From the NCBI GenBank assembly GCA_040954595.2, contig CM082576.2, forward strand, positions 17,035,028 to 17,099,027: a stretch of DNA of 64,000 nt, in the 5' to 3' direction. The notes under the pieces are model-generated. The model was not told the DNA's origin, did not search any database, and was given only the letters and a program-made list of their open reading frames with translations. The stretch comes from Balanoglossus misakiensis (lineage: Eukaryota > Animalia > Hemichordata). Position numbers and translations under genes: made by a program. This document shows positions 19,761-61,180 of the stretch, piece after piece (the stretch's first letter is position 1; the number at the start of each line of letters is the position of its first letter).

Positions 19761-20117
19761 TTAATTCTCTGTGTTTACAAAAGGCAAATAGTATCTCTGA
19801 AACGTTTCAAATGTTAACCAGTGTGACCGTGGTATTATATACCCACCACTTGACTTCATACATAAATATGAACACACAGATTGAATGACACACACACTTA
19901 CACCAAACAAACTAACAAACAAACAGAAACACCTTATAACCATACTATAACTAACTATAACTACAACTAACAAAATAACTTAATATACATCTATAAATAA
20001 GCTGTTCAAATACAGATGTGTACACTTAAATTGACTAAATTTACAAAAATATATACAAACTGTACCGTTATGCCAGTGACGTTCGACCCAAAACTCTGAT
20101 GATAGGACTACATGTAC

Positions 20118-21395: not shown

Positions 21396-21539
21396 AGTGG
21401 TGTCATCTAGTTTCTCCTGGATCTAAAAAAAGCATGAACTTTCAGAAGAGCGGTTTCAATACTATGGTGTTGTCTATATGCAGATTGTAGTGGTTCCAAT
21501 TTAGTGAGTTAGCGGTGAGATAAGTGGCGAGTTAAGTGG

Positions 21540-39400: not shown

Positions 39401-39670
39401 ACTTTGATTTTTGATTCATCAAGTGACTCATAAAACAGTTTAAAGTCATGAAAATTTCGACTGAGGGACCGAATATTACAATGAGATATAGAGAATGTAG
39501 AAATAGGTGTATTACTAACCAAGTTGCAGAACTCAGAGTAAGAATATGAATTACATTTCCTATAACAATCAGAGTTTAACAATTGTTCCGCTTCTACAGA
39601 AGTCATTGAAACACAATAAATCCACAGATTCAGAAAAATAAAAATAGTGAACGACTCTATCAACATTTGT
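36458..39670 (-). mobile_element. L2/CR1-group LINE (Crack/Daphne-like): near-full ORF2 (APE endonuclease + RT) with two frameshifts and no ORF1
   Basis: EN motifs HCNIRSL, LSEIW, GGGVG, GDFN, DHIY, DHLP (38593-39666). RT motifs NYRPVSVL, QYGFR, FLDLKKAFDTV, GVPQG, LFADDT, KYIG. (TTGA)n tail at 36457-36480. Empty site in the paralog at ~26455. Confidence 0.92.
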
Positions 39671-39734
39671 GGTTAAACTTTATATAAGTTCAACTAACAC
39701 TCTCGAAAAAAACCTCCAGATTCTAAAGTAACAA

Positions 39735-41205
39735 ATAATATGACAGAACCCCATGGCTCGATCGTGCAAGCACGGCGTAACGGTAGTATTTGCATCGAGT
39801 GTCTGGTGGTGTATTCTTGCTGGCCCCCGCACGAGCGACAGCAAGTGCTGGGGGCAGCAAGAATACACCGCCAGCACGAGTGCAAATACTACCGGGACGT
39901 CGTGCTTGCACGATCGAGCCATGGGGTTCTGTTATTATTACATATGTTAATCCCGTTTTAGGAGAAATCATCGGAATCACTTAATGAAAAACGAAAGAAA
40001 TGCGACCGCGGAATGATCTTGGTTGTTGAGTAATTTCGTGAACAGGCTACGATACGATAACATCATCAAATTTTCATTGGCTAATGTCTACCACACCCCC
40101 ATTTTTGATTGGACAGTGTTGTTTACTTGTTTACGAGTCTTTGGCCAGGGTCATGTACTGTTCTGCGGAACATCGCATCGCTTTCCACTCACTGCAAACT
40201 GAGGCGAGAGATGCCAGAGGGAATATAATGACAATATAAGATATATATAGTGAACTTCGGAAATTTTTAATCAACAAACAATGTCCCTAAAACATGAATT
40301 CTGAAAAAATGTCATAAATAATCAACAAGGCACCGTCTTTCGGTCGCGTGAATAACAACGATCGTGACCTCTCCCAGCAGTCTGCCAAAAACACGAAACA
40401 CTGAACAAATACAAACACCAAACGATGGAACACCAAAACGTTTTAAACATGACGATTTAAACAGTCATTGGCAAGCAAAAAGTTTCAAAGTATATAAAAA
40501 TGTCAACACACGGAAGTGTCCGTTTATTCATCGTCCGAATCGTACAAAACCATGGGACGTCGTCTCTTGGCAGCGGGCGCGTCGATGGAGCGCGATGCGG
40601 CTGTGGCTGTGCTGGTATTCCCTGCTACGTTGAAATTAAAATTAAATGTCCCGCCAGTGATGGTAGCGTTGGCGAACATACCAGCGACAGCACTACTGCT
40701 TGCCTGTTGGGAAGATAGAATGGGGACATCGACAGGTACTACAGCGCAATCGCGATTCTGAGATGTTTTGGGCTCGTACTGGGATTGAGCACCGGTTAAA
40801 ATGTGTATTTGCTTCTGTTGATTGTCAGAGGCGACCGCGTACCTGTTCAAACTGTTTCGGTCTTGTGGCCGCTTAACTGAACTACGGTATTCGGTGGAAC
40901 GCCTGCGTGTAGTAGCCAAGTTATGGATGTTTTTCTGGCACTGTGGTTTGGCGGCCAGTGCCTCTCTGCTTTTTTGAATTGATCGTCACGTATGACACTC
41001 TGTGGGTACTGCATTTCACGGAAATGTCTATCGATGGTTTTCTGATAACTCGATAATGAATCTGGCTCATATTCCATTCCGTTTTTCATGCGTACCGACC
41101 AGAAGAACGACGTGAGTAGATTATCAAGCTCACCGGGTGGTATTTCGTGAATTGGTCGCCTTTCCTCGGTCATGTTGATTTTCCATTCGTGTGATTCTTT
41201 ACGAA
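39735..41205 (-). mobile_element. Crypton element 1 (DUF3504 tyrosine recombinase pseudogene, internally deleted)
   Basis: EIPPGELDNLL..KNGMEYEPDSL..IDRH joined to NHSARK..SGHK..SLNRY. Terminal long hairpin at 39742-39932. Confidence 0.8.
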
Positions 41206-41461
41206 TCACACAGACCCAACTCCACCGGTCTTTCGCTGTTGCCAGCGCGTACTGACCTTTGAGCAGCTTCCCCGCCTCCTCAAACTGATGGTAGGACAGA
41301 ACCAGGGGACCGAGGGTATTGATCAGCTTGCTGGTCTCCCACAAGGTCCCCCGGCTGCTGTCTCCTTCCAAGTCTTGGATCAGGGCTCTGCAACGGTCTT
41401 CACGCGCTGCTTTCATTAACTGCCAGGCACCCTGGGATGTTCCATTTTTCTGTGGATTCAT
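41205..41461 (-). pseudogene. Gypsy-1 ORF3 N-terminal domain (truncated), homologous to the N-terminus of the TatD-bearing ORF3
   Basis: LWETSKLINTLG…KLLKGQYALATAKDRWSWV aligns with LWQVRELVNGIG…ELLIGQYTIAARRKRWGWI in ORF 56514-58883. Confidence 0.75.
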
Positions 41462-41466
41462 AATCT

Positions 41467-41497
41467 CTAAAGGACAGATAAGAAAAACAGGTTAGTA
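41467..41497 (-). promoter_or_regulatory. Putative 3' splice acceptor before Gypsy-1 ORF3
   Basis: Minus strand after the pol stop: TACTAAC CTGTTTTTCTTATCTGTCCTTTAG|AGATT ATG. Confidence 0.7.
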
Positions 41498-41500
41498 ATA

Positions 41501-42790
41501 TTACTGACAGGCTAAGCAGGTGTAGTGCCTGATGCACCTAGCCTCCCTCGGAGTTAGCCCAACACATTGCCCATGGTACCACTCATAGCATTTGTCACAC
41601 TGTATCATAAACTCACCCCGGTAAGGCCCCCTGCATATGCAGTGAAGTGTGGTGGATGCTACAGGTGCATTGGTCCCCTCCAGTTCGTGCAACCTAACAC
41701 TATGTAAAAATCTGCCTATCCAGGGTGGGACATCTTTACTCCTACACAACTTTAGCCTGTCATGATTCACTGTGACGATGGACCGGGGCATCTTAACCTT
41801 GTACAAGTATGGGGTCAGCCTTCTAATCACCCCCGGCCCTTTCCAACGCATGGCTGGCTCAATTTTTGGCTTTTGCCTTTAACTGCTGCTGATTGGAGGA
41901 CATGTATACGACATCCCCTACATCATTGGAGTGCATAATCACTCGCAGATCATAATCCTTCTTCATCCGCAACTGACTGGATTTCAGGTTCGATCGGGCA
42001 ACTTCGTGAGCTTGATGGAATGGCTGACTGCAGATCTGACGAACTGCTCACTACTCTCTGCCTCAGTAGACGGGGTTCTGAAAATCAAGTCAGCTGGCTG
42101 ATTGATTTCACGACCTAACATGAGCATGTTTGGAGTAAATCCCATCTGCCTATTCACGCAAGACCTTATTGCTCCCGCAATCTGGGGTAGATACGCATCC
42201 CAGTCAGTCTGAGACTTACTCACATACATGTAACACCTGATGGCGTCCATGACCACTCGGTTGTATCGTTCCACTTGACCATTAGCGGATGGCTTGTATG
42301 GTGTTGTGCGAGCTTTATGGATGCGTAAAACCTCGCAGATCGCAGCGAACAGTTTGCTCTCAAAATTAGGCCCCTGATCGGTGAATACCTCAAAAGGATA
42401 ACAAAAATGTGAGAAGAATCCGTTGACTGCCGCCTGTGCTGTCACTTCAGCTGTTTAAGACTAGGAGCGGAACGCATTCAACCCACTTGCTAAATTGGTC
42501 AACCATCATGAGGATATACTCATTCCCCCTGCTCGTCCGAGGCAAAGGTCCCAGGAAATCCAGATGTACTCTTTCCATGGGGCACCCCGCATGGTAGCGT
42601 GTCATTTGGTATCTGGCATGACGTGTTGGCTTCTTGCTGCTATTGCACACATTACAAGAATTTATGAAATTGGTGATGTCACTGGTCATGCCATAAAATA
42701 AGTACTTTCCTTGGACAATTGCCATCATCCTAGTAATACCCTGATGTCCCGCAGCTGGGATTTTATGGTTTAATTCCATAACTTCCGTGC
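41501..42790 (-). pseudogene. Gypsy-1 integrase with C-terminal PHD finger (frameshifted)
   Basis: H..GHQG..C..C Zn motif. RVHLDFLGPLP, TDQGPNFES, ANGQVERYNR core. WKGPG (GPY/F-like). CIC..MIQCDKCYEWYHGQCV..CLAC PHD finger. Confidence 0.9.
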
Positions 42791-42806
42791 GCAGCGACAG
42801 TGTTTA

Positions 42807-43460
42807 TGTTAAGGTCGGGGAACATCAGGTAAATTGCCGGGGAACTCAGGTTACATATTGACCCTATACACCGCCCCCCCCCTCCCCCCCCCCCCGCCGG
42901 CTTACGACTGAATGACTATATATCCATTATAACATACATGTGTATTTTCCACATCATAATGCATAACACACGCGAATATTGAAATGACAACCAACATAAC
43001 TACCATGGTCTGGTAGCCATATGTTTTGATTCATGAAAATGGATTAACCCTTTCAAGCCTGGCTTTCTTGGAATGTATCCGAATTTCTCCTATATTGAGA
43101 CATTTGATTACTTTGTGAATGGCGCCCTCTGTGTCAAGAGGTGGGAGGTGGGTAGCCTCGTTTTGGAAAAAAGACGCCATCTTGTTTTGGTGTGATTGTC
43201 GATGTCGAGCATGGTCTGATGTGAATAAAGAGTCCATTGAAATACAGTTGTGTGTCGACGTTTCAATGGTGGCAGCGGTGTAAACAATGGCCAAAAAAGT
43301 AGAATATTTCACCGGGGAGGAGAGAGGAGAACTGGAACCTTGGTTGGATAGATTCGATGCTATCATTGAGGCAGAAGGTAAAGAGAACAAAGCTGCAGCA
43401 ATAATACGCACGTGTTTGAAAGGAGATGCAGCGACCGTAATCCAATTGCTGTCGGTAGAT
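42807..43460 (+). mobile_element. 5' end (LTR, PBS, gag start) of a third Gypsy element in opposite orientation
   Basis: TGTTAAGG…GTTTCA (~42807-43265), PBS-like TGGTGGCAGCGGT (43267), gag-like start MAKKVEYFTGE…WLDRFDAI…LKGDAA (43287). Confidence 0.65.
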
Positions 43461-43856
43461 GGGTGCCGCATCTTCGGTGTTGATGGAGTGTTCCAATGTT
43501 GTGAAACTTCTGAGATCGAATTCCGTCTTGGAGAACACGTCTTCATACCCACACAACAGTTCTTTAAGCCTATGCCTCTCTCCCTCATTTAAATTGACGC
43601 ATGACCTCTCATAAAGATCTTCTAAATGAGAGGGGATCTCCAATTCGTCGTCTGTCTGCTTCTGAACCTCCTCACTCACGTCCTCATTCGGCAAAGATAC
43701 TGCGCTTGCCTCCATGGCTTGGCCAATGGTTTTTCCTTTTCGTAATACCACCGGCTTGTCTGTCGCATTTACCATACATACCTTTGGAGCGCAGCCCCCA
43801 GGGTGCAGGGTTCGCGGGATCATGACGTTCAACTCTCCCACCGGTTCTAATATGAC
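43460..43856 (-). pseudogene. Gypsy-1 pol, protease-to-RT linker
   Basis: IPSHLEDLY…LKELLCGYEDVFSKTEFDL..LEHSINT..AAPI is the usual pre-RT segment. The RT/RNase H itself is missing. Confidence 0.75.
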
Positions 43857-46224
43857 ATGAGTGAGCCGGTGTATCCTGCGGCAGTATTTTCGCGAGCGAA
43901 GCGAGTGAAAATACAGCAGGATACACCGGCTCACGAGTGAAAATAACATCCGTATCCCTCAAAGTGCCGCGAGGGGGCGTGCCGTTCTGTTATTATTGCA
44001 TATGTTCCACAATTTAGCGAAATTCTCGGCCTGGTTAATAGCAGCGGATTAATACTATAGGCAAAACACTTGTGATCCGCCCCAAGTTACTTGGTCACGT
44101 TTCATTGGTTAAAATCCATCAGCGCTATTGATATGCAAATTTATAACAGGGTCACACACTTTCATTTATCGGCGAGTCAAACACAACACGAATACATGTA
44201 AATAAAGTTCGATAAACAATTTAATGCGAAGCTAAACTGAACAATAAATAACAACAAGTAATAAACGAACATTCCAAACTTATCAAATGGGCATTACATC
44301 TCGCCGAAATGAGCGAAACTACAGCTGCGTTCAATCTGAGTCATCGGAGTCAGGGAAAATAATACGTCGACGTTTAGGGATAAGTGACTTGTTGACATTA
44401 AAGCTAAAATTGAAAGTTCCGCCAAAAATCTGAGCATTGGCAAACATACCGTGCACTTGAGGGGTGTTATTTAAAGCACTCACGTTGTTTGTAAGGACGG
44501 AAACATTAGATTGACTCGATACAATATTATTGGTATCGGTTGACGTCTTGTCGGCGATGGTTTTGTCAACATCGGTGGCACTTGAAGACGGTCGCGGATC
44601 GAAACTTTTCTTTGCGCCGCTCAGGATCTCGCTCATCTGTCGCTGTTGGAATTGATTGGCCACTGCGTATCTATTTAGGCTTGATACATTCTTATGACCA
44701 CTCAGTTGTGCTGTTGTATTTGGTGGGACTCCAGCGTCGAGGAGACGTTGAACACAGGCCTTTCTAGCGCTGTGGTTACTTAACTTTCCGGTCAGTCCCG
44801 CTGCTTTCGACATCGTTTTCATCAGGGATCGGAGTTTATTTATGCCCATTCGTTGATTTCTAAACCATATACTGTTGTTAACAGTGCAGGGAACGTACTC
44901 GATTCCAAGATAGAAAGGTGCGGAAGTGGTATTCATTTTCTGGGGTCGTCGCGAAGCAAAGTTCTTGTACACGCTGACAGCACATGTCTAGGAGAGGAAG
45001 GGGTGGCATAGGCTTTCGGAGCGAAACTTCGTGTATTGCCTGGTTCACCTCGCCGGGTTTTTGTGAGTCTTTCATTATACACGATATATTCGCCGTTCTC
45101 ATCTTCCTGCAAAGTCACGTCTCCCCATTCCATTTCATGATGTTCATCGCTGCCGCGAAGACCGAAAAGCTCAGTGTTGTTGAGCCAGATAGTATTCAAC
45201 AACGCGACCGCCGAATGAACACCGAGCTGACCCGCTTTCAGTAGCGCCGTTTCATGTTCCGCGGACACCGGCTCTGCTTTGTTTGGCAAGTTGCCCTTTC
45301 CGGCGTCTTTTAGTTGTTTACGTTTTGCTGCTAAGGCACGACGACTTGATGCGAACTCTTCGTCCCGAATTATGCTCTTGCCGTAGTTGTTATCACGCAG
45401 CCACCTGTCGATTAATTTTTGGTAGCTGGAAATCGAGTCCGGCTCATACTCTTCCCCGTTCTTTTTTCGAACGCCGATAAAAAAACGTGCAAGAAGGGGA
45501 TCGAGGTCAGAAGGCGGTATTTCCATCAAACCCCGACTTTCTGTTGTCATGGTCGCCTTCCATTCTTCAAATACCGCAACTTCTCTTTTCGTTTTCAACA
45601 CGGTGTTTTTGTTTTTGTGGTCTCCGACGAAAGCATTGACGCCCTCCGATGTAAAATCGACGAATCTCGGTCTTGCGCTCGCGCTCGATGTTGTCGGCAG
45701 GGACGACCCTGGGCTAGAAATATTCATATTTTTCTCCACCGTACTTGCCGAGGCTGATAAATCATGGCTCGTTTCACTTGTCTCGTCTGGATAATAGAAT
45801 TCGGTCCCTAAACTTTCAACATATATGCAGTTTGTCCAGTCGTAATACTGTTCATCCATGGAATAGAAAGGTTCGTCACAGCAGCAGACGACAATATTTA
45901 CAAACAAAAAAATAGTTCCGACACAGGTCGTCTTTGTTTTTACTAATTTGCATATCAGCTGTAAAAATACCACATTGTCGCGTGCACAACTAAACAACAA
46001 TAAGCTTTTTGCGATGTAAAATAAAACCTTTTGCAAATTGGAGGTATATAAAAACTACAAATGATTATGAAACACATGGTGATAAACTTTAAGAGATAAG
46101 ATCGATTGTGTAGGAAATTGGGGATCTTATTTTATGTTAGTTGCTCATTTGCATATGAGCTCGCAAAAATACCAGAATTATTATTGCACGGCCCGCTTGG
46201 AATACTGTAGTACATATGCAATAA
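43857..46224 (-). mobile_element. Crypton element 2 (DUF3504 tyrosine recombinase, one frameshift near 44975) inserted in Gypsy-1 pol
   Basis: RKKNGEEYEPDS, FGLRGSDEH (R), NHSARK, SGHKN, LNRY (Y). Terminal hairpin at 43860-43937. Inverted TTATTGCATATG / CATATGCAATAA at ~43993 and ~46213. Confidence 0.88.
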
Positions 46225-46324
46225 CACGTAGTCCTGCATATCTCCGTGTAAATTACATGGTACGCGGACCACAGAATTTGGTGGAATCGTCGTTCGTCTG
46301 CTCACAGACAATCTCGCAATCCGG

Positions 46325-46922
46325 TAGTCTCGGTTACCCGGACTCTCTTACTCTTTCTCTCGTCTCTAGAGGGCGCTGTGCGAGAAAGAGAGTCTGGGAT
46401 CACTGCACGTTAAATTTTCCGCGAACCGGAAGCATCTTTTAGTAATCGAGCGGTGCACCATGGACCCAATAACAAATCGCAGGGAATAGAGGAATGAATC
46501 GTGTTGTTGTTGTTGTTGGTGATAAAAACAGTTTTAAAAAATTAATTTGTCATTTCCTGCTACCGAAATCGTGGAAAACACGGCCTAGGTCGCCCAACGT
46601 CACTCGTGGAAAACATGACCTAGGTCGGCCAACGTCACTACGAGTGACGTTGGGCGACCTAGGCCGTGTTTTCCACGATTTCGGTAGCAGGAAATGACAA
46701 ATTAATTTTTTAAAACTGTTTTTATCACCAACAACAACAACAACACGATTCATTCCTCTATTCCCTGCGATTTGTTATTGGGTCCATGGTGCACCGCTCG
46801 ATTACTAAAAGATGCTTCCGGTTCGCGGAAAATTTAACGTGCAGTGATCCCAGACTCTCTTTCTCGCACAGCGCCCTCTGGAGACGAGAGAAAGAGTAAG
46901 AGAGTCTGGGTAACCGAGACTA
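46325..46922. mobile_element. 598-bp fold-back MITE, AcademH-like (9-bp TSD)
   Basis: TAGTCTCGGTTACCC…GGGTAACCGAGACTA with near-perfect ~280-bp arms. GCAATCCGG is duplicated at 46316-24 and 46923-31. Confidence 0.9.
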
Positions 46923-46944
46923 GCAATCCGGTGGAGGACCGTCT

Positions 46945-47340
46945 TCATCCCCAAAGGTCATCAGCACTTCTTCGTTGTTGACACGGGAGGATATTTTCTA
47001 ACCAGTCTAGATGAACCCCATGCAATTTGAGAAAGTCTACCCCAAGAAGCATCTCGTCCCCAATGGGGGCCACATAGACTTGTTCTCTGAAAACCGTTTT
47101 TCCCAGCTGCACCGCCACTGGTCCCACAATCGTTCCCCTCATCTTCAGGTCTCTGCCCGCCGTTTGCAATGTTACTGTTTTCAGGGCAGAGGGTTTGTCA
47201 TGCAACTGGGAGTAAAGTTTATCAGAGATTATTGTTACCTCAGAAGCAGTGTCAATCACAGCCTGCGTTCTTGTGCCTTGCACCTTTATGGGTACACGGT
47301 ACATTGAACCAGATCGCAACTGACAAATAGTTACCTGCAT
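46945..47340 (-). pseudogene. Gypsy-1 aspartic protease
   Basis: AVIDTASEVTIIS…MLLGVDFL. Confidence 0.88.
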
Positions 47341-47561
47341 GCTCCTCAGGCTAATTGCAATTATCCTCCTGGGTACATAACTCCGCGTCGTCAGCGACTG
47401 GAACCGCCATCTCTTGCAAAATGATTGGTCCCCTGGAGGAACTCAATGATTGCACATTGGTTGGCGCGTTCGTCGGTGACAACCGAGGTAATGTGCCCTT
47501 TGTGGGTTGATTTTCGGTTTTGTGGGTCAACCCTAGGGTGGCGGGGTTGACCCTCTCCCGT

Positions 47562-49271
47562 TTAAAGGACTCTCGGCAATCTGGACGTTTTTCTTGATGG
47601 GTGATCTGTTTTATCGCTTCCGGGACACTCCCGTTTAAAATGCCCTTCCTTACCACATTGGAAACACATGCCTCCAGGGGAGGGCTGGCGTCTTTGGGAA
47701 CGTGACATGGAGCGATCTCTCTCTGACAACATGTCGTCCAGTTTTGATGTGAGTGTGGACAACAATTGCTCTAAACGTGACAGTCGTTTCTCTACTACAT
47801 CTTTGTTGTGGGATGGGGATGTGGTGGTCGCCCGCACTTTCACCTCATATTCAGAGTCTGAATCTGAATCCATATCTGGGCCGACCTGTCTCACTCTCCC
47901 CTTTGGTATGTCCATGGGTAAGCGAGTGAACTTTGACTTTATCCATGGCTTCCTTGGGTGCACTGAGGAGCGCGTACTGACCTGCCTTTCTATCGATATT
48001 ACCCAGACAAAATTGTCGGATCACTTGTTGCTCGATGTACGCCGTCGGTAGGCCCACGTGCGCACGCGCCGCAAGCGTCCTAATTCGATTGGCCCATTTT
48101 TCTATGGGTTTGTCCGGATCTTGGTTTGTCTGGGGGAAACAGAGGCCCGCTGTTTGACGGCGCACATTGAAATGCGCCGGCGCAGTTTGGGGGCGCACCC
48201 TGCTGATTTCGGACTGCTTACATACCTGCTGTTTGTACCAATTCTTGACACCCGAATCTTGCCTCTAATTTCATCAAGAGATCAGTATAGCTGGTTGACA
48301 TATACAGGCGGTGCGGCGTTCATCCGCGGCTGGTGAAAGCTCTCGGGCGTAACCCGCACATCGTCCGTGTATGCCCCCATTGGTGGCAGTTGAAAAAGTG
48401 TGGGACGTGTCGTGCTTGTGGGTATTTGGTATTGGTTTGCTGGTGGGATTTGCTGTTGCTCCACATACACTATTGGTGCCGTCTGTGGTGGTTGGTCTGC
48501 CCATTCGCTTGGGTGGTTAATAGGTAGATCACTTTGTGCGGTGGCCTCTCCAGAAAATACCATAGGTGGTGTTTGCTGGTTCCTCCCAACCATATGCGTT
48601 GTTGGAGGTGCTACGTTCGTCTGTATTACAGGTGGTGGCGTTCCCGCCGGTGGCGCAGCGTTCGCCTGTGCCGTTAATGATGGCAGCACTGGCTGATTAA
48701 CCCGCAGCTCTGCAGTACTCACCTGTGGTGCATTTGGTGGCATTGGGTAAGGGGGCGTCCTGTAGTATGGTGTGTATGGATATCCGGGTTGTCACACTGC
48801 CGGTGCCATCGGTGGCTGATACTGGGGCTGATACGTTGGATAGTAACTGTATGGCCCAGGTGGGTACGTGGGGTAGCCTGCCATTGGGTACATGTAGCCT
48901 GATGGCGCTTGGGGGTAACCAGGTGGCATCGGAAGTGTTGGCGCAGGTGTTGACGGCGGTGCGTGCGGTTGTTGACCAGGATATACCGAATAAGATTGCC
49001 CATATGGCCCGCTTACATTCACAGACTGTGGCACTGGAGGCGTCAGCGATTGTCGGTACCAATAGTTACCAGGTGGCCCTCCACTGGGCATTTGCGAGAC
49101 TGGTCGGGGTGCGCTCGAATGCGTGATGGTCCCTTGCGACACCGTTTGCGTGGCCGTGGATACGATCAACGCTTGTGTTGTAGGCTGTGTTGCGTTCGGG
49201 GCCGTTACTAATTGGCTGATTAACTGCACAGGTGCTGCCGTTGTAGCAGCTTGCGCGTTTGTGACGTCTCC
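47562..49271 (-). pseudogene. Gypsy-1 gag (Pro/Gln-rich region, capsid-like region, CCHC knuckle), frameshifted
   Basis: CFQCGKEGHFKREC; Q..D..IEKWANRIRTLA..QFCLG; long P/Q/Y-rich tract. Confidence 0.8.
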
Positions 49272-50344
49272 AGGTATGTAGGGGTACTTCGAAGTGCATA
49301 CTCCGAGTTCAAAGACCGAGTCGGACTTCAAAGTCCGAGTACTCGGACTTGTACACTCAGAGTAGTGGCTGTACTCGGACTTGTATACACCGAGTTGCAC
49401 TCGGTGCTCGGACTTGCGTACTCCGAGTTACACACTGCCTATGAAAGACAACGGACGGCAAAAATCCTGTTTTCATTACTCAAGAAGTCATTTATTGCTT
49501 ACTACCATGATTGCATACTGTCCATGATGTCTTGTTGCGCCAGTTTTGAATAGGCATGGGCTTTACATCCATAAAAACATTCACAGGGCTAGATCCATGC
49601 AGTCACGGAGTGACCACTCGTTCACACAGTCACTCCCGGGTGTTCACTAAAGCATAGCACGTAACTGCACTCACACAACCGTTTTTCAAAATAAACAAAT
49701 ATTACGTTTATTTAGACATAAAAACGAAGGGCAAGTATACCGATCACGGAACAATGCGGAAGTCAGATTCATCGCGCGATCATCGGATGAGCGCAGTGCC
49801 TCGACCATATTTCAACCGATGACGTCAAAGGTCAGGTCATTCAAAAAATGGCGATTGTCGCATTGTAGTATGCGCGTTTCGTGTTCGTTAGCGTACTTTT
49901 CACTTAGCTACTAAAATTGACAAACCAATGAGCTCCTTATAAAATTCAGTGTAAAATCAGACTTGGATATGATCTAGTAGAAAGGAAAGGTCAGTATTTA
50001 AACGGAAATTACGCGTAGTGTGCATTTTGTACAGTATAGTACAGCATGTCAAGTTTGAAGTTATCATCTTGAAATAAAGTTGAATGTTGCGATACTTTCA
50101 AAACCCCTCGATCGATTTGACTGGAAGCTCAGTATAAAGTATTCCCACTTTTTATCGCAATATTGAATATTATTTGTGCTTTTAAAGGCTGGCTTTTATG
50201 CAACTGTAACTCGGAGTACGCAAGTCCGAGCACCGAGTGCAACTCGGTGTATACAAGTCCCAGTACAGCCACAGGGAACTCAGGCTCATAGTTGTGGTCA
50301 AATGAATAATATTATTATTATGAATAAAAAATGGAACAAATATT

Positions 50345-52847: not shown

Positions 52848-53752
52848 TACATATAATCCCATGATATCTTTCTTTGTTTGACGTCATCGTATACGAGTGG
52901 TCTTCGCGGAGCAGTGCAAGTTCGAGCCGCAGGCGAGAAGTTGTACGCTTCCGCGAAAACCACGAGTATACGATGACGTTAAACAAAGAAAGATATCATG
53001 GGATTATATATTTATCACATGAACAGTCTTCTTATTTTTCGTTAGAAGAGGCAGGACTAAAACAATTCAGTACCTTGCAACAATTTTGGAGCGGTGTCGT
53101 ATTTTACTGAGCGGGATTATGTCCCCCAGGAGATATATGTTGGGAGATTTTATGAATGATCAGCGATAGTTCACCATTTGCATATACGCAAATGGTGAAC
53201 TATCGCTGATCATTCATAAAATCTCCCAACAAGTCGTCCCGTTGAGTTCCGTTCGCTCGAAGTTCGGCCTTACACAAATGTAATCGATTCTCTAACAATT
53301 TTACTGCAACCTGTTGCCACGTCTTATACATTTCGTTGACTGGTGCAATAGAGAGGTTCAGTCGTCACGCTGAACTGGCTCGAAACAATTCCCCACACTG
53401 ATTCGACTCGGAACGTACCGGACTTGCGCCTAGCCTAGGCTATGTACACCTGACCCAAAACATTGACAGCCACGATCGTCCATGATCGTTGCGTCGACTG
53501 TCTTCTTTCCAAATTCCACCTTTCTGTTTTGAGCTTACAAAGCGTTATTGTCATGGAACCGTCATTTTTTTATTTCATTTCTGTATTGTAAATGCCGCGC
53601 GCTACACGTACTGTTTCTGTTTGACAACAAAGCTACGGCGAATCGGTGGAAATAGTTCCGGTTGATGACGTAACACAGGGGTGATCAGGATTTTTGATCT
53701 GTCCTGGTCTACGTCACACAGGTGGTGATCAGGGCCAGTTCATGTGATAATA
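52848..53752. mobile_element. Non-autonomous Crypton-type element in tandem with Crypton 3
   Basis: Hairpin TATAATCCCATGATATCTTTC…GAAAGATATCATGGGATTATA. Inverted repeat TTATCACATGAAC (53012) / GTTCATGTGATAA (53738). Decayed arms also at ~25950 and ~35970. Confidence 0.72.
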
Positions 53753-53755
53753 AAA

Positions 53756-53804
<49 letters not shown>

Positions 53805-54066
53805 GTTAAGGGGTTTAAAGAATTATATAAACAATTTATCAATTTAATAAGCACGGGTGGATTTTCTGTACAATCATTCCTGATTCTTCAGATTCATAAT
53901 TTAGCGTAGACTAGCCCACTAGTCGCTTGGTGATTTTTAAATCTCAATACTTTTTGTGTTTTCGGTGGTTTTTTGTCTTAATAAATAATTTCAATACTTT
54001 TTGCGTGCATGCTTGCCTTTAGCGTGTTTTCGGTAGTGAGGCGAGTTTCGAATTTGCGACTGAGCT

Positions 54067-54820
54067 TGTGGTTTCGGGTCACGTTCCCTACACAGCCCAT
54101 ACACTTGGAGCAAGTCTAAATTTAGCGCTTAAGACAACATTTTGTAGCGTTTTCCCCAACTTCAACGCCACGGAAAGGTTTCCCTAGTCAATGCCCGTAA
54201 CGCATACTCACCTAGTTGAGTGCGTGCAGGCGGTCCGGGTCCAGAACAAGTAGAGCATGTAGCACCAGACCATGGACGAGACGAGAGAGAACCCCGACTT
54301 CCGGTCCCACGGTGTTATATATAACCTTCACGGGGTCACGTGACTGGTCACATAAGGGTCACCACCCAATCAGCATTTCCACAGGAATCTCCAGGCACTG
54401 GTATACTCCAGGTGAGGTATTCTCCAGAAATACCCATCGTCGTAAAACCACGACCTGTTTACGGCAACTGCTACGCGCTACCGCCAACAGGCCGTGGTGG
54501 ATTTGGAAGGTTTTCGCGGATCCCAGCGTCAGTTCCAGCAGCCAGACAAAGGAACCAATCAGAGAGCCCGTCTCATAAAACTGCATAACTTATTTAAATG
54601 ACAGTGCAAAATGGCGGATTTAAAGCTGACAGCAGCCGAAGAGCTCGCGATAAAACGACTACTGATTGGCTAATTCCAATGTCGTTTCTCATGAATAATT
54701 CATTAGTCTACGTCCTAAATTCCGGGGTTCCCTACTGTAATCTGCCAGAGCCCGTTTTTTGCGTAGCTCCGCGGAGCGGAAACACGGTCGGCTCTGGCTT
54801 GCGAGAATGGAAATACCACA
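54067..54820 (-). repeat. 3' LTR of Gypsy-2 (~754 bp)
   Basis: TGTGGT…ACCACA inverted termini. A polypurine tract GAAGAAAACAGGGGAGAG lies immediately upstream on the minus strand (54821-54838). TATA-like TTATATATAA at ~54314. Confidence 0.75.
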
Positions 54821-54946
54821 CTCTCCCCTGTTTTCTTCTGAAGCGATGGGTTCCGTGTGGATCACTGGAAACTGGGAGATTCCTTTCATAGATGGTTAGA
54901 TGATTATGGACGGAACAGCCGACTCGAATCAATCCGGGATATGGCA

Positions 54947-57566
54947 CATTTTTTCATTTTTCTCTTTTGGGGACTGTTTAGAGCCATACCGTCGAGGTCG
55001 ATTCTTACATGATGGTGGCAAACACAATTTTACTGCCACTGGGGAGGGACCGGAAGTAACAAAAATCAACAAGCAAAAATATCCCCAGTGGCGTGGGCCC
55101 AGATAAAAGGGAAAGACCCATGGAAGGCAGCTCCGGATGTAATATGGATTTCACAGTCTAACACCAATACTGCAGCCTAGGACCCCCCCCAAAGATTACC
55201 CGTTCAGTCGAAGCCGTACAAGCGCCTGGTGTTGTTGGCAGCAGCTCCCAGTAGTTGGTTCAGAGGTATCCCCCGCCGCGCCGCAACCAGGACAGCAACA
55301 TCTCCGATAAAGGCTGGAGTGTTGGGCTTGGCACCATTGGCCACAGGGAAGTACGGGGAGTCCGTCTCCAAGAGAAGACGATCCTCTGGCACCGCCCTGA
55401 GTGCTTCAAGCTGAGGGGTAGAAAAAGTGTTAACACCAGCATTAAAGCTGAAGTAACAGTACGGATAATCCCTGATCCAGCACTCGACCACAAAACGATC
55501 TCCAGTGAAGCCATGGAAGTGGATCAACTGCTCACTGGCGCAGTACTCACGAACGAGTTCAAGAGCCCTACACCCGACAGCAGCAATACACACATCTCCC
55601 GTAGCTCCTCTGATGTGCAGAACCAGGACCTTCCGTGGATCACACAGGGAAAGGGCCAACCTGAACACGGTCTCCTGGAGGGGCCATTTGTCTGCCGCAA
55701 CAGAGAAATCTAACCCAACCTCCCCAATTGCTGCCACCTGAGGGGATTGGATTAATTCCTTGAACTTCTCCAGTCGATTTCCAGTCAGTGTTGCCGCCTG
55801 TTTGGGATGTATTCCCACAGCAATTTTCCAACGCTTACTCCGGGAAAGATTGGTGGGAAAAGTCGTAGGGTCACAGTAAACCTCCACCCCACCCAATACG
55901 GGAATCCCCGTCAGTGATTTCAGCATGGAAGGGGAGGAGACCACTACGTCCGATGTCACGCGGGTGACAGTACCCCGCCACGAAGAAGTCAATCGATCCA
56001 AATGAAAATGAGAATCAAAGGCTCCTAGTGGCGAAGCCGCACTGCCAACGCATTTCACCTTACCCTTAGACTTAGTCGGGTGAGGACCTACATCCAAACT
56101 CTGGCTCCCTGAAGCAGAAGCAGTTGCCGAGGCAATCAAATCTTGCACTTCCTGTGATCGGGACACAGTGCACGACTTCCTGGGCAGAGGATGGCTCTGC
56201 TTGGTTTTCTTGGCCTGCAGAATCTGCCGATCCCCGCTGAAGAGGCCTGCAAACTCATTTTTTCATTTTTCTCTTTTGGGGACTGTTTAGAGCCATACCG
56301 TCGAGGTCGATTCTTACATGATGGTGGCAAACACAATTTTACTGCCACTGGGGAGGGACCGGAAGTAACAAAAATCAACAAGCAAAAATATCCCCAGTGG
56401 CGTGGGCCCAGATAAAAGGGAAAGACCCATGGAAGGCAGCTCCGGATGTAATATGGATTTCACAGTCTAACACCAATACTGCAGCCTAGGACCCCCCCCC
56501 AAAGATTACCCGTTCAGTCGAAGCCGTACAAGCGCCTGGTGTTGTTGGCAGCAGCTCCCAGTAGTTGGTTCAGAGGTATCCCCCGCCGCGCCGCAACCAG
56601 GACAGCAACATCTCCGATAAAGGCTGGAGTGTTGGGCTTGGCACCATTGGCCACAGGGAAGTACGGGGAGTCCGTCTCCAAGAGAAGACGATCCTCTGGC
56701 ACCGCCCTGAGTGCTTCAAGCTGAGGGGTAGAAAAAGTGTTAACACCAGCATTAAAGCTGAAGTAACAGTACGGATAATCCCTGATCCAGCACTCGACCA
56801 CAAAACGATCTCCAGTGAAGCCATGGAAGTGGATCAACTGCTCACTGGCGCAGTACTCACGAACGAGTTCAAGAGCCCTACACCCGACAGCAGCAATACA
56901 CACATCTCCCGTAGCTCCTCTGATGTGCAGAACCAGGACCTTCCGTGGATCACACAGGGAAAGGGCCAACCTGAACACGGTCTCCTGGAGGGGCCATTTG
57001 TCTGCCGCAACAGAGAAATCTAACCCAACCTCCCCAATTGCTGCCACCTGAGGGGATTGGATTAATTCCTTGAACTTCTCCAGTCGATTTCCAGTCAGTG
57101 TTGCCGCCTGTTTGGGATGTATTCCCACAGCAATTTTCCAACGCTTACTCCGGGAAAGATTGGTGGGAAAAGTCGTAGGGTCACAGTAAACCTCCACCCC
57201 ACCCAATACGGGAATCCCCGTCAGTGATTTCAGCATGGAAGGGGAGGAGACCACTACGTCCGATGTCACGCGGGTGACAGTACCCCGCCACGAAGAAGTC
57301 AATCGATCCAAATGAAAATGAGAATCAAAGGCTCCTAGTGGCGAAGCCGCACTGCCAACGCATTTCACCTTACCCTTAGACTTAGTCGGGTGAGGACCTA
57401 CATCCAAACTCTGGCTCCCTGAAGCAGAAGCAGTTGCCGAGGCAATCAAATCTTGCACTTCCTGTGATCGGGACACAGTGCACGACTTCCTGGGCAGAGG
57501 ATGGCTCTGCTTGGTTTTCTTGGCCTGCAGAATCTGCCGATCCCCGCTGAAGAGGCCTGCAAACTC
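54947..57566. repeat. ~1.31-kb near-identical tandem duplication covering the TatD domain and 3' UTR
   Basis: 54947-56256 matches 56256-57566. Identical ORF sets are offset by 1310 (55204/56514, 55229/56539). Confidence 0.95.
55204..56166 (-). pseudogene. Duplicated TatD-domain segment of ORF3 (GTG-initiated in the ORF track, no native start)
   Basis: Identical to the C-terminal ~320 aa of ORF 56514-58883. Confidence 0.75.
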
Positions 57567-58883
57567 CGCTCTCTGCAAAGGAGAAAGAAAACCCAGCAAA
57601 ACCAAGAGCACTCTCCAGTGAACGAGTACAGCGGGAGAATTTGGCGGGTGGAGTCCAAACCGTAGCATGGGCTCCCACCCCAAATCCCTACATAGCTGAT
57701 GCATCAAAGGAAAATACTCTTCCTCTACCGATGAAACCGGCGGAAGAAAGACATGGCCAAACCGCTTGAAATAAACCAACAAGCTCATGGCCGGTGAACC
57801 TGGTGATCCCCCAACAATCCAGGAATGAAGAATGCCCAAAGCATGGAACACTCTCCAAGCCTCGAAAGGATGATCACCCCGGAGTACCGGAGGAACATGC
57901 TTACCCAAGACATGAGCCCTGAGGTCCACAGTTACCTCCGTGCACTCCGGCAAGGGACAACGAACATGACCTGCCGGCGGTATTCCAAGGTAGCCTGGGG
58001 GAAGAGGAACGAGAGGGGGTTGCCCTAAACCAACCGGGAGAAAAGCCTCACTAAAGGGTCCGACCAGAGAAAGAGGGCCAGATCGTTGCACCCGCTGACT
58101 CCCTGCGGAGCCAACAGGAGGCTGATTCAGAACCCCCTTCCCCTTCTTGCCTTTACTGGACTTCTTCTTACCCTGGCCGGTTGCCACCACAGCCTTCCTC
58201 ACCGCTGGTCCTCGTTGCGGGCTAGCCGTTTCCATAGGCGCAGGAAGTACTTCCGGCGCTGCCTCCACCGGGGCAGAAACCAACACCGGTTGCACCTCCG
58301 GTATGGATCCAACCGGTGGACATACCAGTTCCCCCGCCCCCGGCCCCCGAGCGCGTTGGACGTCTGGCAGATGTGCTGCGGGCAGCACCTCTTGCGGGAT
58401 ATCTGAGTGCACAGACTCCCGCTGCCATCTTTCCACTTGCTCAGGGTCCTGAAGACGGAAGTCCCGGTACATACCATCAGGTGGAACTTCATACGAAGCC
58501 GACTTCTTGGACCTTTGGGGAGCAGACCAAGTGTTTTCTCTTGGATTTGGATGAGGAAGATGTTCATCAATCCAAGCGCGATCAAAACCAAGGCAAAGAT
58601 CGACGTCTTTGCGCAGGGCTCTGATCCATCCCCATCGCTTCCTCCGGGCTGCTATGGTGTATTGACCGATCAGGAGCTCCTGGCCCTGTGCCACAGACCG
58701 GTCAGGTCCCATGGAGATAACCCCGATGCCATTGACGAGCTCCCGAACTTGCCAAAGGAAGTCATTGGTGGTAGCATCGGAGATCTCCTGGCTAAGACGC
58801 TGGCGAGCGGCACTTGGACCAGTCGGAGCGACCTCCTTCCATTGGCGCTTGGGTGAGTCAGGGGGAGGAGACGAAGAAGCCAT
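56514..58883 (-). CDS. Gypsy-2 ORF3 (~789 aa): unknown N-terminal domain, Pro-rich linker, C2H2-like finger, TatD-family metal-dependent nuclease
   Basis: Open frame. TatD motifs FDSHFH, GIHP, AIGEVGLD, VLHIR, HFHGF, LLETDSP, N..RLYG. Finger CPLPEC…HVLGKH. Likely start MASSS at 58883; the ORF track extends it to 58958. Confidence 0.88.
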   Translation of the reverse strand: MASSSPPPDSPKRQWKEVAPTGPSAARQRLSQEISDATTNDFLWQVRELVNGIGVISMGPDRSVAQGQELLIGQYTIAARRKRWGWIRALRKDVDLCLGFDRAWIDEHLPHPNPRENTWSAPQRSKKSASYEVPPDGMYRDFRLQDPEQVERWQRESVHSDIPQEVLPAAHLPDVQRARGPGAGELVCPPVGSIPEVQPVLVSAPVEAAPEVLPAPMETASPQRGPAVRKAVVATGQGKKKSSKGKKGKGVLNQPPVGSAGSQRVQRSGPLSLVGPFSEAFLPVGLGQPPLVPLPPGYLGIPPAGHVRCPLPECTEVTVDLRAHVLGKHVPPVLRGDHPFEAWRVFHALGILHSWIVGGSPGSPAMSLLVYFKRFGHVFLPPVSSVEEEYFPLMHQLCRDLGWEPMLRFGLHPPNSPAVLVHWRVLLVLLGFLSPLQRAEFAGLFSGDRQILQAKKTKQSHPLPRKSCTVSRSQEVQDLIASATASASGSQSLDVGPHPTKSKGKVKCVGSAASPLGAFDSHFHLDRLTSSWRGTVTRVTSDVVVSSPSMLKSLTGIPVLGGVEVYCDPTTFPTNLSRSKRWKIAVGIHPKQAATLTGNRLEKFKELIQSPQVAAIGEVGLDFSVAADKWPLQETVFRLALSLCDPRKVLVLHIRGATGDVCIAAVGCRALELVREYCASEQLIHFHGFTGDRFVVECWIRDYPYCYFSFNAGVNTFSTPQLEALRAVPEDRLLLETDSPYFPVANGAKPNTPAFIGDVAVLVAARRGIPLNQLLGAAANNTRRLYGFD

Positions 58884-58885
58884 GT

Positions 58886-58920
58886 CTGTGGACAATGAAG
58901 AGAAAGACAATAGATTAAGA
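58886..58920 (-). promoter_or_regulatory. Putative 3' splice acceptor before Gypsy-2 ORF3
   Basis: Minus strand: TCTTAA(stop)TCTATTGTCTTTCTCTTCATTGTCCACAG|AC ATG. Confidence 0.65.
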
Positions 58921-59310
58921 ACATGCCGGACAAGTATAAACAGAAATCCTCCGCGCATCCCTGGTCGTCACCCCAACGCAGTGTCCATGGTACCACTCCG
59001 AGCAAGCATCACACTGGATCATGAACTCACCACGATAGGGCTTCCGACAAACACAATATAGTGTCGATGATACATCGGCGATCTCTGCCTTACCTGTACT
59101 ATGCCGTTTGAGATTTTCTTGATACCTCATGACCCATTGGGGCAGATCTCGGCTCCGACATAGCTTAAGCCGATCATGGTGGGCAGTTACTATGGCCCGC
59201 TGGAATTTTACCTTATACAAGTATGGTGTTAACTTGTTGATTATAATCCCAGGTCCTTTCCATGGATGACTTAATTTCCGGCTTTTCCCTTTTCCTAGAA
59301 TTGCACATAT
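58915..59310 (-). pseudogene. Gypsy-2 integrase C-terminus with PHD finger
   Basis: WKGPGIIINKLTPYLYKV…YCVCRKPYRGEFMIQCDACSEWYHGHCVG…CPAC. Clearly homologous to, but diverged from, 41501-41851. Confidence 0.88.
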
Positions 59311-60964
59311 CGTGAGATTTGAGCGCCATAGTAACCGCAAATATCGTGGAACAGGAAGGTTAGTGTTTAAATCATTGTTTTTATTCGAAATATTGACCTC
59401 TGAGTTATGCTACGTTTGTGTCAGTGTCAAACGGACGCAATGTTTACATGGCAGCCAAATAGAATCGGAGAAATGAAGAAATGTTATCACGATACTTTGG
59501 ATTTCGTGTTATTATCGCTCGAGAATTTTATTGTTTTCTCAGACGAGGTGACAGGACAGAAACACGAGGCATCTCGCGGTTCCGTTTTCAATGTTGAATT
59601 TTATGTTTTGACTGCATTTGCTTGTCAGCTGACGGGTCTTCGCATTCATCAGAAGCTATCGTGCGTCGCTGAGATTTGATTCTTCATAAACGAAAATTAT
59701 TTCATAACCATACCAAATAAAACATTTCCAGAAATTTAGAAGTTTGTAGACTTTTCTGCTAGATGTCTTTTTAGTGTTGAAGTCACGCTGAACTGCCAAA
59801 TTTAACAGACTCGCCGTCAACACTCAAAGAGTGTGTACTTCTACGAGTGTGTCCTGTAACTGCCTTCCTTCGCTAACCATACAACAACAAATAGACGGTA
59901 AACGTTTATGCAATACCAATGGATTTATGTTTTAAAACTGGTCGACAGTCAGGAAATATGCATGAACAATCGATTAATTGGATTCTCCAGCGATACTATT
60001 ATATCTTGTGATTTTTTGTAGTGAAACTGGAAATCGGCAGGCTGCACTGCCAGTTGTTCTGCACATGCGCAGTTCCTCTGTCTTGAAAGAAAAGTCAAAT
60101 TTCACCAACTTATAAATGTGCATTCGGAAAATAAACCCCAAATGTTTTCTTTGTGACCAAAAATACTGCCAGTGTGATTTTGTGTTCAAATCTAACCTAT
60201 TATTATTTAAATTGACTTGTGATACCCTCTCTTAGCACAAAAAGCATAATTTCAGCCCCAAAATGGTTGCCATAGAAACATGTGATCACTAAACGGATAT
60301 CATTTTTGTTCGTTTTGAGCCAAGATACCCCTATGGTGAAATTTTTGTGGAAATTAGTAAAATAGGGGCTAATCATCAAAACGATGGCGTATGATTTTTT
60401 AAAGTAAGTTTCCAAATTAAAACGTAAGTGAGCCAAGAAAACTACAGGTCAGATAAATTGTTTTCTCGTAAATTCAACATTAGAATCAAATTTGGCGTTG
60501 GAAACAAACGGCGGGTCGCCAGTTCCTGGTCTGGGGACTGGTTGAGTCACATTTTGATACTAATGGTATCGCCATGACCGTTGACCTCGGAGACCACAAA
60601 TTTTGAATCACGCAGACGAGCTGGAGGTTTCACTAAGAGATTGTTGCAAGCAATGCCAAAATACATCGCGAAAACTGTGGATTTTCCAGCTTTATCTACG
60701 ATATGAGGTACAGTACGGATCAGGATTGTCGAGTATGACTACTGTAAGTTGGCCCATGTCGAAATTTAGCGATTCCGATGTTGACTTGGTGTGTTTTTTG
60801 GCGAGTGAAAATCAGTTGGGTATGAGACAAGTTGCATCCCTTGTCTTTTTCTTAGGGTAGAGTATATAGGTCGGCCAGTACAGTACGTGTTAGGGGCCGG
60901 GAGAAGACAGCATGCATAGGTATGTTGGATTTTAACACATGATAGATAACAAGAACTACTACAA

Positions 60965-60998
<34 letters not shown>

Positions 60999-61180
60999 TT
61001 TTAATATTTGTTCCATTTTTTATTCATAATAATAATATTATTCATTTGACCACAACTATGAGCCTGAGTTCCCTGTGGTACAGCCACTACTCGGAGTGTA
61101 CAAGTCCGAGTACTCGGACTTTGAAGTCCGACTCGGTCTTTGAACTCGGAGTATGCACTTCGAAGTACTCTTACATACCT

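What the first reader, a model, noticed from the sequence alone, without database searches (positions are those of the whole stretch)
54067..59310. Gypsy retrotransposon carrying a TatD nuclease as a third ORF in the env position
Seen: an uninterrupted ~789-aa ORF lies between the integrase-PHD stop (58915) and a PPT plus TGTGGT…ACCACA LTR, so it is inside the element. Its C-terminus keeps all canonical TatD metal ligands (HxH in DSHFH, E in GEVGLD, H in LHIR, H in FHGF, D in ETDSP). It is intronless and fused to ~500 aa of unrelated sequence, unlike host TATDN1/3. Known: TatD proteins are 3'-5' exonucleases or AP endonucleases; the ORF after pol in Gypsy/errantiviruses is normally env. Inference: this is an LTR lineage that encodes its own nuclease, possibly for cDNA or RNA:DNA hybrid processing, repair of integration intermediates, or defence against host sensing or competing elements. 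I do not recall a described Gypsy-TatD family, but could not check.
Basis: partly seen in the sequence, partly recalled or inferred. Interest (0 to 1): 0.92.

Follow-up and report, generated by a model that had tools for sequence, protein, structure and literature searches.

The report
Marine Gypsy retrotransposons carry TatD nuclease
This is the broken tail end of a jumping gene from a whole branch of Gypsy retrotransposons of marine invertebrates that carry, where a viral coat gene would sit, a conserved third gene for a TatD enzyme that is predicted to be an active nuclease, is likely made from its own spliced message and likely helps the element by degrading RNA in RNA:DNA hybrids.

Summary
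Confirmed in substance. A 789-aa open frame (56514-58883, minus) follows an integrase-PHD tail and ends in a TatD domain with all six metal ligands. The link to Gypsy is shown elsewhere: an intact gag-pol-ORF3-LTR element (L001), and 14 of 14 integrase-PHD contigs of an animal-contaminated bin carry the same ORF3. There the TatD follows the integrase tree, has dN/dS about 0.13, and has a splice acceptor before its ATG (15 of 16) with a donor in the LTR (6 of 6). The 'unrelated' 500 aa hold two conserved folded domains. Relatives occur in echinoderms, a hemichordate, bivalves and a brachiopod; a second Gypsy branch carries a sister TatD. It groups with animal TATDN2-like proteins rather than bacterial ones. 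Activity and role are untested. Ten literature searches found no description; Repbase/Dfam could not be searched. This scan noted the same layout before in a sea urchin.

The parts
59296..60542 (.). High-copy repeat that cuts off the Gypsy copy inside the integrase (not part of the element)
   Evidence: depth rises 10-40 fold and loose ends at 59296 and 60542 in 4 runs; no rve/RT/gag upstream
58915..59295 (-). Integrase C-terminal part with PHD finger and stop (remnant of pol)
   Evidence: PF00628 E 1e-10, PF22938 E 0.046; 60% identical to the integrase tail of the second Gypsy at 41504-41845
58886..58906 (-). Predicted splice acceptor (pyrimidine tract + CAG) 2 nt before the ORF3 ATG
   Evidence: same motif before the ORF3 ATG in 15 of 16 scorable elements against 8% of 2386 control ATGs; no RNA read seen
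56514..58883 (-). ORF3, 789 aa: N-domain, low-complexity linker with basic patch, finger + helical M-domain, TatD
58530..58820 (-). ORF3 helical N-domain (residues about 22-118), family-specific, no known family
   Evidence: pLDDT 84-98; own HMM hits 43 of 155 family rows, L001 and the second window element; only generic helical matches, best Z 8.5
58134..58169 (-). Lys-rich patch (residues 239-250), candidate nuclear localisation signal
   Evidence: sequence; 34 of 43 N-domain members have 5 or more K/R in 8 residues; no control for this count
57564..57965 (-). ORF3 M-domain (residues about 307-440): C-x4-C-x9-H-x4-H finger plus helical bundle ending in P-x-N-S-P...H-W-R
   Evidence: C309 96/97, C314 93/94, H324 99/102, H329 103/105 rows; pLDDT about 90; absent from 4 of 4 host TATDN2-like and 5 of 5 bacterial proteins tested
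56523..57329 (-). TatD domain, group II (HxH), six metal ligands intact
   Evidence: PF01026 E 4e-37; best solved relatives YcfH-type; Foldseek E 2e-12 to TatD structures
54947..56256 (-). Second copy of a 1311-nt tandem duplication (TatD half + 3' UTR); its first Met lies behind the HxH motif; private to this copy or an assembly artefact
   Evidence: 99.9% identical to 56256-57566; contigs of run X1 pass unbroken over both ends (records 3 and 5)
54821..54839 (-). Polypurine tract
   Evidence: same GGGGAG(G)AG|TGTRGT junction in 8 related contigs
54192..54820 (-). 3' LTR (about 246 nt without the insert; right end inferred), with TATA-like box at about 54315-54323
   Evidence: related LTRs are 190-375 nt
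54435..54809 (.). 375-nt MITE-like insert in the LTR, 8-nt target duplication (54810-54817, 54427-54434)
   Evidence: joint 54426-54810 in 4 of 4 runs
54206..54211 (-). Predicted splice donor (TAG|GTGAGT) near the LTR end; in a 5' LTR it would serve the ORF3 message
   Evidence: one such donor shortly before the primer site in 6 of 6 complete related LTRs
53907..54190 (.).
   Evidence: bin depth 40-fold above the LTR, joints 53986-54094 and 53938-54034
41195..49400 (-). Second, decayed member of the same clade: gag knuckle, protease, integrase-PHD, acceptor, start of ORF3 cut by a Crypton-like insert
   Evidence: N-domain E 1e-5; inside the 100* clade

Best explanation
The region is the damaged 3' end of a Gypsy LTR retrotransposon from a clade in which integrase ends in a PHD finger and a conserved, selected third gene encodes a TatD domain that is predicted to be an active nuclease, likely translated from its own spliced message and likely acting in the nucleus on the RNA strand of RNA:DNA hybrids or structured RNA to keep the element transcribed and mobile. 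Shown: ORF3 is an inherited part of the element, sits in the env slot, has three folded domains, keeps its ligands and evolves under purifying selection. Inferred from motifs: an LTR donor is spliced to the acceptor before the ATG, so the protein is made apart from Gag-Pol; basic patches suggest the nucleus. Inferred from kinship with TATDN2-like proteins (human TATDN2 degrades the RNA of R-loops and hairpins): an RNase activity, aimed by the finger/helical M-domain. Inferred and least sure: the benefit is removal of hybrids or guide/target RNA on which host silencing or stalling depends.
For: Element-borne: L001 has gag, a 1415-aa PR-RT-RH-IN-PHD pol, ORF3 with N, M and TatD, PPT, LTR and primer site. 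In bin G182, 14 of 14 Gypsy contigs with an integrase-PHD tail have the ORF3 directly behind; the other 2 of 16 family contigs begin inside ORF3. These pols form one clade, SH-aLRT 100, with L001 and the second window element. 0 of 22 other non-PHD Gypsy pols fetched have TatD behind them, 9 of these with 1.3 kb or more of downstream sequence. Co-descent: sister pairs match in both trees; Mantel rho 0.39, p 0.017 for 10 elements. Selection: TatD dN/dS 0.13 (L210/L218), 0.13 (L223/L224), 0.14 (L207/L212, dS near saturation); 126 of 142 family rows covering all six ligand positions keep H-H-E-H-H-D. Splicing: acceptor 15 of 16 against 8%, donor 6 of 6; ORF3s of LTR elements are typically spliced (PMC5408684, passage). 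Kinship: element TatDs and 4 host TATDN2-like proteins are split from 9 bacterial and 3 giant-virus TatDs at 100/100. TATDN2 as R-loop RNase: PMC10711561, abstract. RNase H, RT and integrase motifs of the clade are intact, so TatD is an addition, not a replacement.
Against: No activity, localisation, transcript or splice junction was observed. TatD enzymes also cut DNA (3' exonuclease, AP endonuclease; PMC10085689, passages), so the RNA preference rests on kinship alone, and the tree held no TATDN1 or TATDN3 and only 4 host rows, one of which is named TATDN2 by its source. 16 of 142 rows have lost one or more ligands, and 6 of 16 family contigs in G182 have a broken ORF3. The window's own copy looks dead: 5 synonymous and 10 non-synonymous changes among the 15 listed differences to run X1 that fall in the frame (a subset of a cut table). 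The Mantel test for the M-domain was borderline (p 0.052). Context could not be checked for the named echinoderm, bivalve and brachiopod proteins. G182 and L001 are collapsed short-read assemblies, so target-site duplications were not seen. Confidence that ORF3 is a selected element gene is about 0.97, that it is an active nuclease about 0.85; the figure below is for the whole mechanism.
Confidence: 0.5

Rival explanations
1. Same element-borne enzyme, but it works on DNA: a 3'-5' exonuclease or AP endonuclease that trims or repairs the element's cDNA ends or the gapped integration intermediate.
For: TATDN1, TATDN3, TatD, YjjV and YcfH have 3' exonuclease and AP endonuclease activity (PMC10085689, passages); best solved relatives by sequence are YcfH-type DNases; a finger domain could bind DNA; basic patches fit a nuclear step.
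Against: A separately spliced protein has no obvious route into the particle; most Gypsy elements integrate without such an enzyme (0 of 22 neighbours in G182); nearest host proteins are TATDN2-like, and human TATDN2 spared DNA in R-loops (PMC10711561, abstract).
Confidence: 0.27
2. The enzyme is a weapon or shield in the cytoplasm: it degrades small RNAs or double-stranded RNA to blunt piRNA/siRNA or innate sensing, or it destroys nucleic acid of competing elements.
For: Parallel capture of a DEDDy 3'-5' exonuclease as ORF3 in rotifer LTR elements, with a silencing role entertained by the authors (PMC5408684, passages); TatD has been co-opted for defence as QatD (PMC13434339, listing only); TATDN2 cuts hairpin RNA.
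Against: Basic patches point to the nucleus (uncontrolled); no small-RNA data were available.
Confidence: 0.15
3. The TatD fold is kept as a nucleic-acid-binding or scaffold module and catalysis is incidental.
For: 16 of 142 rows lack ligands yet several are long intact ORFs; earlier notes of this scan describe ligand-less TatD folds in flatworm Gypsy ORF3s (e1-8581076, not tested here).
Against: 126 of 142 rows at under 50% mutual identity keep all six ligands.
Confidence: 0.06
4. Neutral cargo: a processed host TATDN copy that landed in or beside one LTR element.
For: The window's copy is broken and the ORF is intronless.
Against: Same position in L001, in 14 of 14 G182 contigs and in a second window element; co-descent with pol; dN/dS 0.13; two extra conserved domains absent from host proteins.
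Confidence: 0.01

Closest known systems
Juno and Vesta LTR retrotransposons of bdelloid rotifers with a DEDDy-type 3'-5' exonuclease as ORF3 (PMC5408684; passages read)
   Same: Non-env enzymatic ORF3 behind pol, catalytic residues intact, nuclease function proposed but untested
   Different: Different fold (RNase D/DEDDy, not TIM-barrel TatD; the paper has no occurrence of TatD); family-specific gains in rotifers, with no clear departure from neutrality reported, against a clade-wide gene with dN/dS 0.13, two extra domains and relatives in four phyla
Orchid Gypsy elements with an AlkB m6A demethylase ORF (PMC9289625; abstract)
   Same: Host nucleic-acid enzyme fixed as an additional ORF in a Gypsy lineage, read as counter-surveillance
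   Different: Recent, one plant genus, a demethylase with activity shown; here an old, diverse animal clade and an untested nuclease
TatD group II (HxH): TATDN2, TATDN3, YcfH, YjjV (PMC10085689, passages; PMC10711561, abstract)
   Same: HxH motif, E, H, H, D ligands, TIM-barrel fold; groups with TATDN2-like host proteins
   Different: Encoded by a retrotransposon, intronless, multi-copy, fused to N- and M-domains that host proteins tested lack
Errantivirus env (ORF3 of insect Gypsy elements)
   Same: Third ORF between pol and 3' LTR, predicted spliced message
   Different: No env homology, no clear signal or membrane anchor; an enzyme domain instead. A 2026 survey of env-bearing elements in metazoans does not mention TatD (PMC13524379, term search)

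Membership tests
Ty3/Gypsy LTR retrotransposon | pol order PR-RT-RH-IN | tested here: met
   Met in relatives L001, L207, L209, L211, L212, L213; the window's copy keeps only the integrase tail
Ty3/Gypsy LTR retrotransposon | PPT, TG-starting LTR, primer-binding site | tested here: met
   PPT and LTR start in the window; LTR plus TGGCG-type primer site in 6 relatives
Ty3/Gypsy LTR retrotransposon | paired LTRs with a target-site duplication | tested here: inconclusive
   Window copy has no 5' LTR; L001, L209, L212, L221 are circularly collapsed contigs, which fits paired LTRs but hides insertion sites
TatD group II nuclease | PF01026 domain and TIM-barrel fold | tested here: met
   E 4e-37 above cut-off; Foldseek E 2e-12
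TatD group II nuclease | HxH plus E, H, H, D metal ligands | tested here: met
   All six in the window; 126 of 142 family rows
TatD group II nuclease | metal-dependent nuclease activity | not testable with these tools
   needs an assay
Host TATDN2 orthologue | falls inside the host TATDN2 clade | tested here: not met
   Forms its own clade (100/99) beside 4 host TATDN2-like rows (97/96); few host rows, none from the likely host phyla
Host TATDN2 lineage as donor | closer to TATDN2 than to TATDN1, TATDN3 or bacterial TatD | tested here: inconclusive
   Closer than to bacterial and giant-virus rows (100/100); TATDN1 and TATDN3 were not in the tree; by sequence TATDN1 chains scored E 2e-4 against 1e-15 for YcfH
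Errantivirus (env-bearing Gypsy) | ORF3 is a membrane fusion glycoprotein | tested here: not met
   Only Pfam hit is TatD; the most hydrophobic 19-mer (KD 1.9) lies inside the folded M-domain; no viral fold match for the N-terminal part
A named Repbase/GyDB Gypsy clade | RT placement among named clades | not testable with these tools
   no reference set of named elements was available
QatD / bacterial TatD equivalogs | NCBIfam curated cut-offs | tested here: not met
   70 bits against cut-off 230 for QatD; 111 against 206 for TIGR00010

The most novel reading that the evidence does not exclude
An old Gypsy clade spread over protostomes and deuterostomes domesticated a TATDN2-type R-loop RNase, gave it a finger-based targeting domain and expresses it in the env slot as a counter-silencing enzyme; two element lineages still carry it, and many 'uncharacterized' or TatD-like genes annotated in sea urchin, bivalve, hemichordate and brachiopod genomes are these transposon genes.
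Probability: 0.3. Interest if true: 0.9.

Novelty: new variant of a known kind. Interest (0 to 1): 0.74.

Why it matters
Fixed capture of a host enzyme by an LTR lineage is considered rare, and the known nuclease case (rotifer DEDDy ORF3) is patchy and showed no clear selection. Here a whole clade keeps a TatD with intact active site under strong constraint, which implies an unrecognised step in the life cycle or the host conflict of these elements that one purified domain can test. It also offers many natural, diverse relatives of TATDN2, a poorly soluble human R-loop RNase, and warns that apparent TatD expansions in marine invertebrate annotations may be transposons.

Tried and rejected
No genome is held for the window, so copy number and paired LTRs in the host genome were not tested. 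No RNA holder was listed. A search for pol-TatD fused proteins of 1555-4440 aa found none among 7988 candidates (weak), and none of 58 long family proteins carried an RT or integrase domain: read-through fusion to pol is not supported. Viral contigs: no relative of the L001 integrase, and 24 TatD-only hits without N or M domain. Prokaryote genomes: 80 loci kept, all TatD-only, so a direct bacterial contig origin is rejected; G182 is a bin contaminated with animal repeats (132 integrase matches), not a bacterial host. 'TatD replaces a dead RNase H' rejected. ESM Atlas gave only generic TatD clusters at 0.80. Fold searches for the N+M model: nothing under E 0.001 in BFVD; VIA hits were generic helical solenoids on the N-domain and the M-domain was barely tested, so its fold stays unassigned. 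Contig C341 with a PHD match is not a Gypsy element and was left out of the 14. Whether the two TatD-bearing branches share one capture is unresolved (90/64); the closest pol relatives of L221 (L227, L228) end too soon to tell. Literature: 10 searches; those pairing TatD with gypsy, retrotransposon or LTR retrotransposon returned 1, 2 and 2 papers, none about such an element by title or abstract. Subscription papers, Repbase Reports, Dfam and supplements were not seen and may hold a prior annotation.
Full report
OBSERVATION. The minus strand holds a 789-aa frame from 58883 to 56514 whose only Pfam hit is TatD_DNase, E 4e-37. H522, H524, E618, H653, H687 and D738 are present. Upstream is a frame ending at 58915 with a PHD finger and a faint integrase C-terminal hit; downstream are a purine tract and TGTGGT at 54820.

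THE COPY IS DAMAGED. Laying four public runs on 52500-61000 (2 samples) shows a high-copy repeat starting at 59296, which cuts the integrase; nothing further of this element is in the window. A 1311-nt tandem duplication repeats the TatD half and 3' UTR; contigs of run X1 pass unbroken over both of its ends, so it is private to this copy or an assembly artefact. A 375-nt insert with an 8-nt target duplication lies in the LTR and is skipped by contigs in 4 of 4 runs. The ACCACA at 54067 lies in a further repeat; the LTR probably ends near 54192. The window alone therefore could not prove the claim. It does hold a second, decayed Gypsy at about 41195-49400 whose integrase-PHD is followed by the start of a homologous ORF3.

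THE LINK TO GYPSY IS SHOWN ELSEWHERE. Of 80 metagenome loci kept, 3 matched beyond the TatD domain. L001 is a circularly collapsed 8.9-kb element: gag with CCHC knuckle, a 1415-aa PR-RT-RH-IN-PHD frame, a 690-aa ORF3 with the same three domains, PPT, 190-nt LTR and primer site. A search of 201 bacterial genomes of one family found one bin, G182, with full-length hits; it is contaminated with animal repeats. It gave 31 matches to the ORF3 profile and 132 to the L001 integrase. Of 16 contigs with the N-M-TatD family, 14 have an integrase-PHD tail directly upstream on the same strand and 2 begin inside ORF3; conversely all 14 Gypsy contigs whose integrase match reaches the PHD have the ORF3 (a fifteenth PHD match is not Gypsy). 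ORF3 is uninterrupted in 10 of the 16. Among 23 non-PHD Gypsy pols fetched (the best-scoring ones, not all 132), one (L221) has a related M+TatD ORF3 and 22 have none, though only 9 of the 22 have 1.3 kb or more of sequence behind pol.

IT IS INHERITED AND SELECTED. The PHD-bearing pols, L001 and the second window element form one clade (SH-aLRT 100). Sister pairs agree between pol and TatD trees (L208/L209, L207/L212 with L214, L210/L211, L205/L213); distances correlate (rho 0.39, p 0.017; M-domain 0.28, p 0.052). TatD dN/dS is 0.13 in the two close pairs and 0.14-0.15 in two distant pairs; three further pairs were saturated. A profile search of 1.84 billion representatives returned 150 best hits, nearly all of this family; of 155 rows aligned, 142 cover all six ligand positions and 126 keep them all. 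Named members are from Ptychodera flava, Strongylocentrotus purpuratus, Lytechinus, Diadema, Ostrea, Argopecten (five proteins in one 90% cluster) and Lingula (20 of 148 representatives looked up, 5 with a species name). Their genomic context could not be read, so their being element genes is inferred. Against selection on the window's own copy: 5 synonymous and 10 non-synonymous differences to X1 among those listed, as expected for a dead copy.

ANATOMY OF ORF3. AlphaFold with 71 sequences gives three confident domains joined by disordered linkers: a helical N-domain (about 22-118), an M-domain (about 307-440) opening with C-x4-C-x9-H-x4-H, conserved in over 95% of rows, and the TatD barrel (Foldseek E 2e-12). 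N and M match no Pfam family and no specific fold. The M profile hits 117 of 155 family rows and 51 of 69 proteins of the second family, but none of 4 host TATDN2-like or 5 bacterial proteins. A pyrimidine tract with YAG lies 0-16 nt before the ORF3 ATG in 15 of 16 scorable elements (2 of 18 had no ATG in range; L001 was the miss) against 191 of 2386 control ATGs; each of 6 complete LTRs has a single GTRAGW donor shortly before the primer site, and the window's LTR has one at 54211. This is the env-type arrangement of a spliced subgenomic message; no RNA read confirms it.

ORIGIN. In a 36-row maximum-likelihood tree the family (100/99), the second family (100/99) and four host TATDN2-like proteins (97/96) are separated from bacterial and giant-virus TatDs at 100/100; the two element families as sisters is not settled (90/64). 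TATDN1 and TATDN3 were not available for the tree. A TATDN2-type donor is thus likely, not shown.

MECHANISM. The clade's RNase H, RT and integrase motifs are intact, so TatD adds a function. Being made apart from Gag-Pol and carrying basic patches, it more likely works in the nucleus than in the particle. Human TATDN2 degrades the RNA of R-loops and hairpins (PMC10711561, abstract), whereas other TatDs are DNA 3' exonucleases and AP endonucleases (PMC10085689, passages). I commit to an RNase that clears hybrids or structured RNA at the element's loci (0.5), ahead of a DNA-processing role (0.27), a cytoplasmic anti-small-RNA or competitor role (0.15), a binding-only role (0.06) and neutral cargo (0.01).

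NOVELTY. Non-env enzymatic ORF3s are known (rotifer DEDDy and GDSL, PMC5408684, passages; orchid AlkB, PMC9289625, abstract), so this is a new variant of a known kind. Ten full-text searches found no Gypsy-TatD description; Repbase, Dfam, subscription papers and supplements were not seen.

Noticed in passing
L221-L224 (G182 contigs C1247, C1189, C535, C889); proteins P0005, P0169-P0237: A second TatD family (M-domain + TatD, no N-domain) is ORF3 of a complete Gypsy element without PHD (L221); the M profile hits 51 of 69 of these proteins; named members come from Saccostrea, Crassostrea and Mytilus, and 90% clusters reach 206 members.
   Followed up: partly
L236, L237, L240, L241 (frames behind pol): Other Gypsy lineages in the same bin have third ORFs of 250-500 aa that begin with a C2H2-type finger; L233, L238, L244 have long downstream ORFs without a Pfam hit. 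A finger-plus-cargo ORF3 slot may be general in these elements.
   Followed up: partly
G182: A 9-Mb bacterial species representative holds 132 integrase matches and at least 20 animal TatD-ORF3 contigs: heavy host contamination; some proteins of this kind carry bacterial names in NCBI (P0169, P0184, P0210).
   Followed up: partly
L001:8600-8790 and L209: The gag frame starts with a helix-hairpin-helix-like stretch (label recalled, no Pfam hit); a match at E 3e-4 in the L209 gag.
   Followed up: no
window 40524-41190, 44331-46054, 50799-52281: Three Crypton-like tyrosine-recombinase pieces (DUF3504 / phage integrase / QRICH1 hits); two of them interrupt the second Gypsy element.
   Followed up: no
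window 46325-46922, 39734-39939, 52838-53020, 53138-53231: Several long palindromic inserts (up to 283-nt arms, 99% complementary), MITE- or foldback-like.
   Followed up: no
window 37609-39672: Endonuclease and RT frames of a LINE (CR1/L2-like by recalled motifs).
   Followed up: no
window 19966-21538: 76-nt tandem arrays on both sides of an inverted repeat at 20433-20873.
   Followed up: no
P0224, P0115, P0127: Family members with added domains: NADAR (PF08719) behind TatD, and CCHC knuckles in the linker.
   Followed up: no
PMC6962438 (passage): A 'TATDN2' is annotated inside the giant squid Hox cluster among transposon-like genes; it may be such an element.
   Followed up: no
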